Below, piece after piece: positions 11,374 through 64,000 of a stretch of DNA of 64,000 nt (its first letter is position 1; each line of letters begins with the position of its first letter). The DNA is from Octopus vulgaris. Its lineage: Eukaryota. The notes under the pieces were generated by a model. That model was not told where the DNA came from and ran no database searches. It saw only the letters and a program-made list of their open reading frames with translations. The translations under genes and the position numbers were made by a program. Where the stretch lies: positions 69,564,001 through 69,628,000 of the forward strand of contig OX597828.1 of the NCBI GenBank assembly GCA_951406725.2. The letters run 5' to 3'.

Positions 11374-14300
11374 TATATTATATAGATACAGATATATATA
11401 TACACGGTGATCCCTTGACTGTTGCGAATGTTACGTTCCAACTGCCCCCCCCCCTATATTATAGGTAAAAATCCGCAAAGTAGAAACAGTATTGTACTTT
11501 ATTCTTTTGTTCTTCTATTCTTTTATTTGTTTCAGTCATTTGACTGCGGCCATGCTGGAGCACCGCCTTCCGTCGAACAAATCAACCCTAACATCCATTG
11601 TCAAGTGATGTTGGGAGGACAAACAGACACACATATATCTGGCCAGTATATAATATATAATATCATATATATATATATAATGTCGTTGCCAGTGCCACCT
11701 GAGTGTCTCCCGTGCCGGTGGCACATAAAAAGCACCATTCGATCATGGTTGTTGTCAGTGCCGCCTGACTGGCTCCCATGCCAGTGGCATGTAAAAAGCA
11801 CCCACTACACTCTCGGAGTGGTTGGCGTTAGGAAGGGCATCCAGCTGAAGAAACTTTGCCAGATCAGATTGGAGCCAGTCCTCAGTCAAACCTTGCAACC
11901 CATGCCAGCATGGAAAGCGGATGATAATGACGATGATGATGATGATATATATATATATATATATATATATATATATATATATATATATATATATATATAT
12001 ATATATATATATATGCAACAGGCTTCTTTCAGTTTCCCTCTACCAAATCCACTTACAAGGCTTTGGTTAGCTCATTCATGCATAAGTGTATGCATATGTG
12101 TTGTGTGTGTGTGTGTGTGTATCAATTCCATTTGAGTTTTCACCATGGAGTTTGCTTTATAAAGCTTGTCCGCAGGTATCGGCTATCATCACACAATCAA
12201 TTTCAAATTTTGGCACAAGGCCAGCAATTTCAGGGGAAGAGGTAAGTCAGTTGCATCGACCCTCAGTACTCAACTAATGCTTACTTTATCGACCAAGGAG
12301 GGGTTTAAAGCAAAGTCAACCTCGGTTGTATTTGAACTCGAAATGTAAAGACGAAGAAAATACCAATAAGCTTTTTGCGCAGCATTCTAACGATTGTGCC
12401 AGCTTGCCGCCTTCTCACAGGTATTATTGTACAAAGAAAATGAATCACTTTACTGATGATTTCTAAATATCTGTAGAATTTCTATAAATATTAACAAGGA
12501 GAATCAAGTAAATCAGAGATGCTATTCTCCTGTAATACATTGTATTATATTTTGTATGTTATGTAATAATAATAATAATAATATTCCGTCGTAAAATTCT
12601 GGTAAAGTGTCGATAAAACAATTGTAGAATTATGCAAGAGAATGAATCGCTCACATCATTCTCCATGTTATATATACATATATATATATATATATATATA
12701 TATATATATATACACACACATATATACATACATATATATATACACACACACGCACATATACATATATATATAAACATATATATATACACATGCATATACA
12801 TATATATATATGTATGTGTATGTACATATACATGTATTTGTGTATATATATATACACATATACCAATGGCTATATATATATATATATATATATATATATA
12901 TTACATGTATGTATGTCTGTGTGTGGATGTATATAAATACACACACACATACACACATGTATTGTTAGTTGATATGTTGATTTGTTTAATGTCTGGCTTC
13001 TCATGCGAGCATGGCTTGGATGGGAAATCATGATTTTAAGACAGTAGTTTATAGTAGGGTGCTTTTCCTGTCACTAACCCTTCCCCTGGTTTTGAAATAA
13101 AGGGTCCTCATATTCCACAGGTTTCCAAAAGCACTGATAGATGTGTCACAATGTCAACCAGGAATGTCTCACACACACACATAAATATATGTGTATATGT
13201 ATATATGTGTATATATATATATATATATATATATATATATATATATATATATATATATATATATGTATCTCTCTCTCTATATATATATGTGTGTGCGTAT
13301 AGATAGATAGATAGATAGATAGATAGTTAGAGGAGAGATATAAATGTCTAGGCAGATAACATGTTACTCTATGTAGAGTGCCAAGGCCGGTTTCTTCGGA
13401 CAAATTGCGCATAAATCCCTGCATATAAATATGCAGCAATAAGCAGTTGATACGATCGAAACACGTGTCGGACAATTATTATGAATAAACCAAGCAGAAC
13501 GTCTGGATGTTCAAATTCTTAATTTTCCTTATTCTCTATTTGTGTATATGTATGTATGTATGTAGGCATGCATGTGTGTGTGTATATATATATATATATA
13601 TATATATATATATATATATATATATTGTGTATATATGTATGTATGTATGTATATATATATATATATATATATATATATATGTGTATATATATATATATGC
13701 GCATCTATATATATGTGCATGTATATATATATATGCATATATATATAGTTAGATAAATAGATACATATATATATTTATACATATATATATATATATATGT
13801 ATACATATATGTAGAGATATATATGTATAAATACATATATGTATGTATGTCTGTATGTATGTATATATGTATGTATGTATGTATGTATGTAGGCATGTGT
13901 GTATATATATATGTGTGTGTATGTGTGTGTGTGTGTATATATATATATATATATATATATATATATGCATATATATATGTGCATCTATATATATGTGCAT
14001 GTATATATATGCATATATATATATAGTTAGATAGATACATACATACGTATATATATTTATACATATATATATATGTATACATATATGTAGAGATATATAT
14101 GTATAAATACATGTATGTATGTATGTATCTATCTATCTATCTATCTACATATATATATATATATATATATATATATATATATATATATATATGGCTAACG
14201 TGTTGGTTTATGTCAGGCAACCTGGTTGGAGCTTAGTAAGAGAGCAGGGTGATGTCATTAATAGGATAGAGGTGGAGGGAGGGTGTTCTCCACCCTACAG

Positions 14301-16355
14301 ACTGGTGAAGGGGGAGGGGTGCAGCTAGCCTCAGAATAACAGAGGCACACTTTATTAGGAAGTCGGCACCTGACCTGAACCACCGCCTAATGAGCTGGGT
14401 GCATGGAAAGAACGTCTGCTGCTTCCAGGATCTGTAATTGCGAAAGAGTGGAAAACTAATCACCATCAGGAGAGTGCGGAAAATATGAATGCGGAAGTCT
14501 AATGAAGAACCTTCAGTTCACAAGTGCTCAGTGAATCAGCTACTCCACCCAGTAACAAGGCCCAGTCCAGCCACACACCACATGTCAGGGTAAACTGTCT
14601 AGCCTTCTACCTACATACCAAACCATCTATCTATCCACGTAGTAATCCCTCTATCTATCTATCTATCTATCTATCTATTTATCTATCTATCTATCTACCT
14701 ATCTGTCTGTTTGTCTGGCTGTCTGTCTCTCTCTCTATCTGTCTGTCTGTCTGTTTGTCTGACTGTCTGTTTGTCTGTCTGTCAGTCTATCTGTCAATCT
14801 ATCTGTCTGTCTGTCTATCTATCTATCTATCTATCTATCTATCTACCTATCTATCTATCTACCTATCTATCTATCAATGTGTCTATCTATCTATCTATCT
14901 ATCTATCTATCTATCTATCTATCTATCTATCTATCTATCTATCTATCTATCCGTCTGTCTGTCTGTTTGTCTGTCTGTCAATCTGTCTGTCTGTCTGTCT
15001 GTCTGTCTGTCTCTCCCTCTCTCTATCTATCTATCTGTCTATCTGTCTGTTGTCTATCTGTCAATCTGTCTGTCTGTGTCTCTTTCTCTTTATTTATCTA
15101 TCTATCAGTCTATTTATCCCTCTGTCTGTCTGTCTGTCTATCTATCTATCTATATATCTATCTATCTCAATGTAGCTATTGATTTATCTGTCTGTCTATC
15201 TACACACACACACACACACACACACGTATATATTGTTTGCTCTGTCTGCCTATCCATCTGCCTACCTACTTTTATATGTCCTTTCAAAAATGTTTTTAAA
15301 ATTGCTAAAAGCCTTCAAAACTTTTAAAACATTTTCATCCACAAACCTTTACAGCTTCTTCTGCATCCATAGACTTTTATAACAAAAAAAAATCTTACAT
15401 CCGCCCCTCAACCTATTAGACACAATTAATCCTCCAATTCGGCTGCCTCTTCTATTCAATTACCGCTCTTCTTTTCTATATTGTTTCACTTTATTTTATT
15501 TTATTTTATTTTATTTTATTTCATCTCCCCCACCACAAACTTTATTGTATATTATCTTTCTCAATTTTATTTTAATCTATTTCTACTCATCTTTCACCAA
15601 AGCTTTCCTACTAACAGCTTTAGCCTATTATCTTACTGAACATATATGTGTGTGTGTGTTTGTATAAATTTATAAGTATATTATATATACATATATATAA
15701 TGTACTTATATATCTATGTATATATATATATATATATATATATATATATATATATATATCAAGCATATTAAAAATTCCTCTACCAAATTCACTGACAAAG
15801 CGTTGGTCAGCCTGGTCTGATAACAGAAGGCATTTTCTCAATGCACCGCACAACTGCCATACCTATGTGTGTGTGTGAATGTTAAACGATGATGATGTAT
15901 ATATATATATATATATATATATATATACATCATCATCATCATCATCATTATCATCGTTTAATGTCTGATTTCCATGCTAGCATGGGTTAGACGGTTCGAC
16001 CGGGGTCTGGGCAGCCTGGAGGCTGCACCAGGCCCAGTCTGATCTGGCAGTGTTTCTACAGCTGGATGCCCTTCCTAACGCCAACCACTCCATGAGTGTA
16101 GTGGGTGCTTTTTACATGCCACCGGCACAGGTGCCAGGCAAGGCTGGCAACAGCCAAGATCGGTTGGTGCTTTTTACGTGCCACCGGCACGGACGCCAGT
16201 CGGGACGGTGCCTATATATATTTATAGGTATATATATATATATATATATATATATATATATATATATATATAAATAATAAAATATTAGGGAATAAATCCA
16301 AATTTACAGGGAAAAATCAGATTTAGGATTGAATCCAATTTTATAGTAAAATATT

Positions 16356-16550
16356 ATATAATATTAATTAGAGACAAAACCACTATTTTGTAAATCAAAC
16401 AAGGAAAGACTTAATTAATACATAAAAAAATTTTATTTTAATATAAAGTAAATAAATCGCCACTTTATATTAAAATTTTTTTATGTATTGATTAAGTCTT
16501 TCCTTGTTTGATTTACAAAATAGTGGTTTTGTCTCTAATTAATACTATAT
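16356..16550. repeat. Long near-perfect inverted repeat (~90 bp arms, 12 nt loop)
   Basis: 16356-16449 pairs with 16462-16550 apart from a 5-nt indel and ~2 mismatches; loop aaataaatcgcc. Related sequence occurs at ~50480-50560. Confidence 0.9.
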
Positions 16551-17592
16551 ATATATATATATATATATATATATATATATATATATATATGTATACATAC
16601 ATATACACACACACACATATGTGTATATGCATGTGTGTATGTGTAGATAGATAGATAGACAGTATGTATGCTTGTTGCCACTTCAACATGGCTATTCCAC
16701 AGGAATTGATGTTGCTGCCATTCTATAGAGGATGCCTCCTCCAGCTGGTTATTTGATGCAATCTGCATCCGATAAATATTGCAAGGGTTAGGGACTGAAC
16801 CCCTACCATCTTCCAGTGACCACCAGGCACTACAGTTCTGAGCTCTTTGTGTTCATCCTCGGTGGTGGATACCTAGCAAATTCACACGTATGTATGTATA
16901 TATGTATGTGCACATGCATATGTGTGTGTGTGTGTGTTCTTATTATGTCTATGTATTTGTCCATATTGCAAACAAGCTACCCTCATTTCCCCATGCTAGT
17001 GAAATGATGACAAGAATGTCATACTTGCCCTTACTTCTCTCCTACTCATCCTCCTACAACCACCCTAGGCACCTAGCACCTCCACAAAAACAACAATACC
17101 CTCACCCCACTTAATACGCAAGGTAGGGGTGGAAGTGACAGTAACGTGGTGGGGGCAGCTATTATCTCACCCTCTATATTCTCAGTGAGATTAACCTCAC
17201 TAACCTAACTGCAGATAAAATATTTTTATGCCCACCATCACTACCACCACCCTGGCACATGTTGTACCTCACCCTGCCTTCAAGATGTGTGAGGGGGACC
17301 TTCAACTGGCCTCCACTTATACTTATTGTGTAGTACTCCAACCCCTCTTAACCAGTCCCACTATGAGGTAAAATGCAGAGAAATGATCTCTCATCCATCC
17401 ACCAACCTTAGCACTCAGTGACTTCACAGTGCACATGGGACCAGATGCACACCCATGGATGCACATACACATGCATTTGCAAGCATTTACACAAACATTG
17501 ATGGTTGTATATATGTGTGCATGTATATATATATATATATATATATATGTATATGTATATATGTATATAATATATATATAAATAATAAATAA

Positions 17593-63617: not shown

Positions 63618-63819
63618 AAACACTGCCGGATTGAGACCTCCTTAAAATATGGAGGGGGAAAAACCTCGTTTTTAAGGGTAAAACCCTAGATGTTTATCTC
63701 CCTTTGCCATTGTCCCTCAGTCTTCAGCTGCGCTGCTATCTTGCAGTCACTAAAGCACCACAAAGCTAAACGAGGCTTTCCCCTCCAGGTTTTAAAGAGG
63801 TTTCAGGCCAACAGTGTTT

Positions 63820-63880
63820 GGGGTCTGAAGATACACCACAAAACTCAACCCCTTATGAGTGAGAAACCCAGGGTAACATC
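63820..63880 (+). ncRNA. Hammerhead ribozyme motif in right arm of inverted repeat
   Basis: Reads ggggt CTGAAGA tac...actca..tgagtga GAAAC ccagg GTA acatc. The core is intact, stem III is ACCCAGGGT, and stem I is partly decayed. Confidence 0.6.
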
Positions 63881-64000
63881 ATAAACTAGCCTACCCCACT
63901 ATAACATATATATATATATATATATATATATATACACACATATATATATACATACATATATATATATACGTACACATATATAAATATATATATATACACA

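What the first reader, a model, noticed from the sequence alone, without database searches (positions are those of the whole stretch)
13450..63904. A zoo of unrelated hammerhead-ribozyme mini-elements with palindromic stem III scattered through the window
Seen: hammerhead cores at 35245, 39490, 63557 and 63820, plus decayed or partial cores at 13458, 35725, 48194, 54575 and 56008. Their flanks show no similarity to each other by eye, except the 63.5/63.8 kb pair. Where intact, stem III is self-complementary (ACATATGT, ACATGCGTGT, ACCCAGGGT, ACACGTGT), and most motifs lie a short distance from a microsatellite. Established: Penelope-like elements and metazoan retrozymes carry type I hammerheads with palindromic stem III that cleave as dimers. 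Inference: this genome hosts many independent non-autonomous ribozyme-retroelement families at roughly one per 7 kb. They could cut host pre-mRNAs or produce small or circular RNAs.
Basis: partly seen in the sequence, partly recalled or inferred. Interest (0 to 1): 0.8.

Follow-up and report, generated by a model that had tools for sequence, protein, structure and literature searches.

The report
Penelope retrotransposon tails carrying hammerhead ribozymes
The nine self-cutting-RNA motifs sit in eight repeat families. Four are the cut-off tail ends of known protein-coding Penelope-type jumping genes, and one is a small protein-less repeat that likely borrows their enzymes. Only two copies are still intact, so this is mostly a known fossil record.

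Summary
The motifs are real. The nine sites are eight insertions from eight dispersed repeat families; two of these (G, H) are related. Only 35245 and 39490 are intact type I hammerheads. 'Many independent non-autonomous mini-elements' is mostly wrong. Families A (39.5 kb), C (63.5/63.8 kb, one inverted insertion), D (48.2 kb) and E (13.4 kb) are 5'-truncated 3' ends of protein-coding Penelope-like elements (PLEs): longer genomic copies run from RT and/or GIY-YIG coding sequence into the ribozyme. B (35.2 kb) is a non-coding 364-nt tandem unit (retrozyme-type) with a U4C core, a compensatory stem I change and PLE-style insertion scars. F, G and H stay unlinked to any ORF. In 600 kb of evenly placed genome samples, 19 intact-looking motifs occur against about 1 in shuffles (1 per 32 kb), and 11 of 11 looped stems III are self-complementary. 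Closeness to microsatellites in general is chance here; closeness to (TA)n is not. Cleavage, circles and effects on host RNA are untested. The biology is described (Cervera 2014, 2020; Li 2026), and this scan has noted similar families on other DNA of this genome.

The parts
13311..13400 (-). Family E: inverted piece of the element's own 3' region
   Evidence: Matches the downstream part of other E copies in opposite orientation (L081, L083; flanks)
13396..13540 (+). Family E: 5'-truncated 3' end of a Hydra-like PLE; only the 3' half of a long-stem-II hammerhead (palindromic stem III at 13458), 5' core lost
   Evidence: 257 candidates; alignment; same-strand RT or EN remnants upstream in 4 of 25 loci
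35074..35329 (-). Family B: 0.7 unit of a 364-nt non-coding tandem monomer (retrozyme-type), between (TA)n tracts
   Evidence: 2039 and 2664 candidates; copies map on a repeated unit
35245..35291 (-). Intact type I hammerhead with U4C core, 6-bp proximal stem I, 4-bp stem II, 10-nt palindromic stem III; predicted cut 3' of the C at plus-strand position 35251
35690..35830 (+). Family H: decayed minimal hammerhead (core at 35724; G12 and G16.2 lost); old family related to G
   Evidence: 123 candidates
39288..39769 (-). Family A: 5'-truncated 3' end of a Hydra-like RT + GIY-YIG PLE, ending at (TA)n
   Evidence: 2338 candidates; 88-89% to ORF-bearing copies L153, L161-L164
39490..39575 (-). Intact type I hammerhead, long stem II, 8-nt palindromic stem III; predicted cut 3' of the C at plus-strand position 39495
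39773..39886 (+).
47760..47866 (+). Family D: remnant of the tRNA-like head and internal (AAT)n
47867..48121 (.). Another repeat inserted into the (AAT)n of the D copy
   Evidence: partly shared with L070
48122..48326 (+). Family D: 3' end of a Penelope/Poseidon-type PLE with a decayed minimal hammerhead (core at 48199; GAAA box mutated)
   Evidence: 2794 candidates; EN, head and body in order in 26 of 30 loci and in sampled locus L262
54520..54610 (-). Family F: truncated, decayed type I hammerhead (about 54564-54609); family core U3-A8, 4-bp non-palindromic stem III
   Evidence: 866 and 2630 candidates
56003..56130 (+). Family G: decayed minimal hammerhead (core at 56014), old family
63480..63773 (-). 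Family C: truncated 3' end of a Hydra-like PLE; hammerhead 63556-63618 with weak stem II base and a changed 15.2 position
   Evidence: 1333 candidates; EN upstream on the same strand; RT, thumb and ribozyme in order in L208
63768..63907 (+). Family C inverted arm of the same insertion; hammerhead at 63820 with broken stem I

Best explanation
The nine motifs are type I hammerhead sequences in eight dispersed repeat families: four families (A, C, D, E) are 5'-truncated 3' ends of protein-coding Penelope-like elements, one (B) is a 364-nt non-coding tandem unit likely copied by the same enzymes, and three (F, G, H) are likely PLE ends too but are unlinked. Shown: fixed 3' ends, staggered 5' ends, inverted arms, ORF-to-ribozyme continuity in longer copies, and (TA)n at the 3' ends of A, B, C and F. 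Inferred from PLE biology: the GIY-YIG endonuclease nicks the target, the RT copies the RNA from its 3' end and usually stops after a few hundred bases, and a second priming event writes the inverted arm. The ribozyme lies in the last 150-300 nt, so nearly every truncated copy keeps it, which explains a 'zoo' with unrelated flanks. In the parent RNA the ribozyme would cut tandem transcripts as a dimer paired through the palindromic stem III (predicted; for B the dimer is the computed minimum). B would be released as a monomer, probably circularised, and copied more than once around. Single copies like those in the window are mostly dead or need a partner in trans.
For: A: RT frame, EN frame and ribozyme in order in L164 (89% to the window over 479 nt); ribozyme about 280 nt after the stop in L153; PLE-type protein hits in 14 of 20 A loci; EN search 17,888 candidates; GIY-YIG Pfam E=6e-4, below cut-off. 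C: protein hits in 10 of 20 loci, 8 on the same strand upstream; RT to ribozyme in L208. D: EN, head, (AAT)n, ribozyme in 26 of 30 loci. E: 4 of 25 loci. Staggered 5' and clustered 3' ends. Inverted copy within 1.2 kb upstream in 5/20 A, 4/20 B, 5/20 C, 4/15 D, 5/15 E, 6/12 F, 0/12 G, 0/8 H. (TA)n at the 3' end vs control: A 19 vs 4 of 20, B 8 vs 1 of 20, C 10 vs 2 of 20, F 7 vs 3 of 12. B: 42% GC, longest stop-free frame 82 aa; 56 of 68 segments end at unit 172-179 or 226-236, 22 of 44 loci hold both orientations, 33 of 44 exceed one unit (the second query favoured long copies); 0 of 93 profile hits have a PLE protein upstream; A-U to G-C change at the first stem I pair in 22 of 53 distinct rows; dimer fold equals the cofold minimum, -26.9 kcal/mol. 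Sample: 19 vs about 1.1-1.2 in shuffles; 11 of 11 vs 3 of 58 self-complementary.
Against: No ORF link for F, G or H. G and H show no inverted arms. (TA)n is not enriched for D (1 of 15) or G (1 of 12). Pfam and PDB do not name the RT: the RT and clade calls rest on motifs read by eye and on unnamed homologues. The B covariation is essentially one subfamily event; the count of covarying pairs does not exceed shuffles (309 of 500). For A the dimer target, evaluated with only the basal stem II pairs, is far from the cofold minimum (-12.2 vs -33.9). Rfam does not recognise any motif. No cleavage or circle was observed.
Confidence: 0.88

Rival explanations
1. All sites are independent non-autonomous ribozyme mini-elements.
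For: No PLE protein hit in the window itself; B fits; F, G and H have no ORF link; many short D copies start at the tRNA-like head, so a SINE-like D subpopulation is possible.
Against: A, C, D and E continue into RT or EN coding sequence in longer copies; 5' ends are staggered.
Confidence: 0.06
2. The window copies are active or co-opted ribozymes that cut host pre-mRNA or release small RNAs.
For: Two copies keep a full core; 17 of 20 A copies pass the descriptor.
Against: The A copies are 91-93% alike, so intactness reflects youth. Monomer folds are not the minimum. PLE minimal hammerheads showed no monomer and low dimer cleavage (PMC4209133). Only 1 of 9 tested Xenopus dimers cleaved (10.64898/2026.07.22.740005). 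U4C considerably lowers in vitro activity (PMC3088659).
Confidence: 0.04
3. B is only the terminal repeat of an undetected autonomous PLE, and its tandems are partial-tandem insertion products.
For: Shares PLE scars; Li 2026 reports retrozyme homology to PLE terminal repeats; only 44 loci of more than 2000 candidates were examined.
Against: Adjacent ribozymes are 364 nt apart with no ORF between (L024, L030, L169, L190); 0 of 93 hits have an upstream PLE protein.
Confidence: 0.1
4. The motifs are chance matches in a repeat-rich genome.
For: Loose descriptors are reached by up to 19 of 100 shuffles of the window; no Rfam hit.
Against: Tight descriptor 0 of 300; 19 vs about 1 in the sample; family-wide conservation and a compensatory change.
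Confidence: 0.01

Closest known systems
Hammerheads in terminal repeats of metazoan PLEs (Cervera and de la Pena 2014, PMC4209133; parts 1-2 of 4 read)
   Same: Many heterogeneous families per genome, mostly single copies from truncated PLEs, opposite-strand pairs 100-700 bp apart, extra base between 9 and 10.1, palindromic stem III, U3-A8 variant.
   Different: Host (octopus-like, inferred). Extrapolated number (order 80,000) is above the 2,000-9,000 reported there, with a different descriptor. Very long stem II in A, C and E.
Metazoan non-LTR retrozymes (Cervera and de la Pena 2020, PMC7229834, passages and sections 14, 17; Li, Clavereau and Pollet 2026, 10.64898/2026.07.22.740005, parts 1-3 of 5)
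   Same: B: 364-nt non-coding unit, GC below 45%, type I hammerhead in each unit, head-to-tail copies; U-U at the base of helix II in part of the family, as in axolotl HHR_Amex2.
   Different: U4C in 60 of 65 aligned copies; arrays seen only up to about 3 units; two fixed 3' ends 55 nt apart with inverted arms; circular RNA not shown.
Hydra clade of C-terminal EN+ PLEs (Craig et al. 2021, PMC8557442; passages)
   Same: A: DKT motif, no CCHH in the GIY-YIG core, CxxC and CxH around the conserved E and N, (TA)n targets, hammerhead present.
   Different: The CxCX5C linker motif is absent from the A frames seen; an Asn-rich linker, often an in-frame (AAT)n, stands there.
Penelope/Poseidon PLEs (PMC8557442; passages)
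   Same: D: C-terminal GIY-YIG with two Cys in the core and two His, no linker zinc finger, minimal hammerhead downstream.
   Different: A tRNA-like head with A- and B-box-like motifs and (AAT)n lies between the stop codon and the ribozyme.
Schistosome SINE-like hammerhead elements (PMC6765202; passages)
   Same: Pol III-type promoter upstream of a hammerhead (D).
   Different: D is contiguous with a PLE ORF and has a minimal hammerhead.

Membership tests
Type I hammerhead ribozyme | Core boxes with three stems and an NUH site | tested here: met
   A and B window copies; family majority for C-H; most other window copies are decayed
Type I hammerhead ribozyme | Rfam hammerhead model match | tested here: not met
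Type I hammerhead ribozyme | Covariation in stems | tested here: inconclusive
   One clear compensatory pair in B (22 of 53 rows), a single subfamily event
Type I hammerhead ribozyme | Self-cleavage at the NUH site | not testable with these tools
   Only assembled contigs were available
EN+ Penelope-like element (A, C, D, E) | RT followed by C-terminal GIY-YIG, ribozyme downstream on the same strand | tested here: met
   A; C; E; D thumb and EN only, RT core not retrieved
EN+ Penelope-like element (A, C, D, E) | 5' truncation with inverted adjacent copy | tested here: met
EN+ Penelope-like element (F, G, H) | ORF upstream of the ribozyme | tested here: inconclusive
   None found in the loci fetched; queries were Hydra- and Poseidon-type proteins only
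Hydra clade (A) | DKT motif; no CCHH; CxxC and CxH around E and N; (TA)n target | tested here: met
   Frames of L164, L165, L153 read by eye
Hydra clade (A) | CxCX5C linker motif | tested here: not met
   Absent from the A frames, present in homologues P0002-P0007; hence 'Hydra-like'
Hydra clade (A) | RWK motif and RT tree placement | not tested
   N-terminus not retrieved; no reference set
Penelope/Poseidon (D) | CCHH in the EN, no linker zinc finger | tested here: met
   L310, L312, L314 frames read by eye
Non-LTR retrozyme (B) | 150-450 nt non-coding head-to-tail unit, low GC, hammerhead in each unit | tested here: met
Non-LTR retrozyme (B) | Expressed as linear and circular monomer RNA | not testable with these tools
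   No holder on record as RNA; contigs only
Stand-alone tRNA-derived SINE (D) | Element starts at the tRNA head, with no ORF attached | tested here: not met
   ORF directly upstream of the head in longer copies; Rfam does not call the head a tRNA

The most novel reading that the evidence does not exclude
Family B is a cephalopod circular RNA whose ribozyme is tuned down by a fixed U4C core and works only as a dimer. A resident (TA)n-targeting Hydra-like PLE copies it round the circle from two fixed priming points 55 nt apart. The genome then carries on the order of 80,000 intact-looking hammerheads, enough for palindrome-matched copies in different transcripts to pair and cut in trans, and family D adds a Pol III promoter that lets a PLE end spread like a SINE.
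Probability: 0.25. Interest if true: 0.6.

Novelty: new member of a known kind. Interest (0 to 1): 0.33.

Why it matters
It turns an apparent zoo into the expected footprint of PLE 5' truncation and gives a sequence tag for PLE relics that Rfam misses. It estimates a high hammerhead density in a cephalopod-type genome (about 1 intact-looking motif per 32 kb). Family B offers a defined 364-nt unit with PLE-type scars, on which the proposed PLE-driven retrozyme cycle and the effect of a natural U4C core can be tested. I found no paper on octopus hammerheads or retrozymes in the library; Repbase and Dfam entries and paper supplements were not checked and may already hold these families.

Tried and rejected
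Rfam scans: no hammerhead and no tRNA call for the D head. General microsatellite proximity: not significant. Pfam gave no RT or passing GIY-YIG hit; PDB nothing useful; protein search for longer relatives of the EN alone found none. Sequencing runs for B: no RNA holder listed; contigs of four guessed-RNA runs cover most of the unit, but cannot show ends, strand or level. No read data were obtained for the window's own A locus, so transcription of these loci is open. Monomer folding of eight window copies: none shows all three hammerhead stems and none is clearly more stable than shuffles, z from -1.9 to +1.3. Walks upstream of F and G found no ORF (part of the output was cut from view). Look-ups of earlier findings by sequence for B and D returned nothing.
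Full report
Setting. The window is G000:C15:69564001-69628000 of a 2.8-Gb genome, 39% GC and rich in microsatellites. The best protein relative of the main element comes from an octopus, so the host is probably an octopod (inference).

Observation. All nine sites exist. A type I descriptor finds two intact motifs, 35245-35291(-) and 39490-39575(-); 63556-63618(-) passes only a loose version. 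With tight settings 0 of 300 shuffles reach 2 hits; with looser settings 5, 11 and 9 of 100 do. Rfam reports no hammerhead. Each site belongs to a dispersed family: A 2338 candidates, B 2039, C 1333, D 2794, E 257, F 866, G 16, H 123. These are first-look candidates, not copy numbers. Family alignments show hammerhead layouts even where the window copy has decayed. A, C and E have long stems II and palindromic stems III. D, G and H are minimal hammerheads with an extra base before stem II. F has a U3-A8 core and a non-palindromic 4-bp stem III. The eight window copies share no blastn similarity, but G and H profiles pick up the same abundant relatives.

Density. In 60 evenly placed 10-kb stretches (600 kb) the descriptor finds 19 motifs against a mean of 1.2 and 1.1 in two shuffle runs. 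All 11 with a loop 3 are fully self-complementary, against 3 of 58 in shuffles. That is 1 per 32 kb, the same as the window's 2 per 64 kb, so the window is typical. Scaled to the genome it is roughly 80,000 motifs (extrapolation from 19 hits). Proximity to microsatellites in general is chance (P=0.34); proximity to (TA)n is not (P=0.017), and (TA)n follows the 3' end in 19 of 20 A copies against 4 of 20 controls.

What the families are. Copies have clustered 3' ends and staggered 5' ends and often an inverted copy just upstream. The window shows this at 39773-39886, 63768-63907 and 13311-13400. Family A continues 5' into a GIY-YIG frame and an RT frame; L164 holds RT, EN and ribozyme in order and is 89% identical to the window copy. 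Its motifs match the description of the Hydra clade in PMC8557442, except that the CxCX5C linker motif is replaced by an Asn-rich, often (AAT)n-encoded linker. C shows the same kind of EN upstream in 8 of 20 loci and RT through to the ribozyme in L208. E does so in 4 of 25 loci. For D I first read a tRNA-headed SINE. Pfam and PDB do not name these proteins beyond one sub-threshold GIY-YIG hit, so the domain calls rest on motifs and homologues. F, G and H gave no ORF link.

Family B is different. Its copies map onto a repeated 364-nt unit of 42% GC with no long frame. Arrays reach about three units. Of 68 segments in 44 loci (6 overlapping loci dropped from 50), 29 end at unit position 172-179 and 27 at 226-236, 37 are followed by (TA)n, and 22 loci hold both orientations. 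None of 93 profile hits has a PLE protein upstream. Position 4 of the core is C in 60 of 65 aligned copies. A second subfamily changes the first stem I pair from A-U to G-C (22 of 53 distinct rows) and shortens stem III while keeping it palindromic; this is one event, and the number of covarying pairs does not exceed shuffles. For two window copies the computed minimum is exactly the dimeric hammerhead (-26.9 kcal/mol), whereas the monomeric fold (-5.5) loses to a misfold (-8.6); for A the same test was not favourable as set up.

Mechanism. Shown: anatomy, ORF linkage, (TA)n preference, palindromes. Inferred from PMC8557442 and PMC4209133: EN nicking, 3'-primed reverse transcription that usually aborts early, an inverted second arm, and dimer-dependent processing of tandem transcripts. 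Because the ribozyme sits near the 3' end, short insertions keep it and then decay: 17 of 20 A copies pass the descriptor, against 7 of 20 B (many others have U-U at the base of stem II), 4 of 20 C, 1 of 15 D, 0 of 15 E, 1 of 12 F, 3 of 12 G and 0 of 8 H. B most likely follows the retrozyme cycle with PLE enzymes in trans; no RNA evidence for or against was obtained.

Comparison with print. PMC4209133 (parts 1-2 of 4) already describes heterogeneous families, single truncated copies, opposite-strand pairs, palindromic stem III, the U3-A8 variant and weak dimer cleavage. PMC7229834 (passages and sections 14, 17) defines animal retrozymes and names PLEs as likely drivers. The 2026 preprint 10.64898/2026.07.22.740005 (parts 1-3 of 5) supports a PLE origin in vertebrates and saw cleavage in 1 of 9 dimers. 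PMC3088659 (passages) notes that U4C lowers activity in vitro yet supports viroid infectivity. PMC6765202 (passages) reviews PLE and schistosome SINE hammerheads. PMC13282606 and PMC8967140 (passages) report Penelope expansions in octopus and do not use the word ribozyme. PMC10886601 (passages) was not relevant. Searches for hammerhead or retrozyme with octopus found no dedicated paper. Supplements were not read and may list cephalopod families. The scan has noted similar retrozyme and tRNA-headed families elsewhere in this genome.

Verdict. Real, mostly fossil, and explained by known PLE and retrozyme biology. New members of a known kind, with family B and the tRNA-like head of D as the parts worth a bench test.

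Noticed in passing
L153:3979-5289, L162:4147-5001, L164:1765-2634, L014:817-1353: The RT-EN linker of family A is Asn-rich, and in the subfamily closest to the window copy it is an in-frame (AAT)n of variable length, so the element carries microsatellites around the genome.
   Followed up: partly
window 47760-47866; L310, L312, L315: A tRNA-like head with A- and B-box-like motifs follows the stop codon of the family D ORF; many short copies begin at it, often at the centre of an inversion.
   Followed up: partly
P0001: A database protein named 'myb-like protein I' is 53% identical to the family A frame and looks like a mis-annotated PLE fragment.
   Followed up: no
L236, L251, L272, L276, L279, L280: An abundant minimal-hammerhead family related to G and H; 3 of its 6 descriptor hits also have C at position 4.
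   Followed up: partly
L235, L241, L242, L245, L251, L272, L280: Further unrelated long-stem-II hammerhead families with palindromic stem III; in L251 two different ribozymes lie 235 nt apart on one strand.
   Followed up: no
window 58013-58868, 21078-21862, 28531-28750, 40055-40328: Tandem repeats with periods of 242, 136-156, 108 and 63 bp; no hammerhead descriptor hit in them.
   Followed up: no
   Followed up: no
L084-L087 (C22) and L293, L294, L316 (C4): Clusters of near-identical loci at spacings of several to tens of kb, suggesting segmental tandem duplication that includes PLE copies.
   Followed up: no
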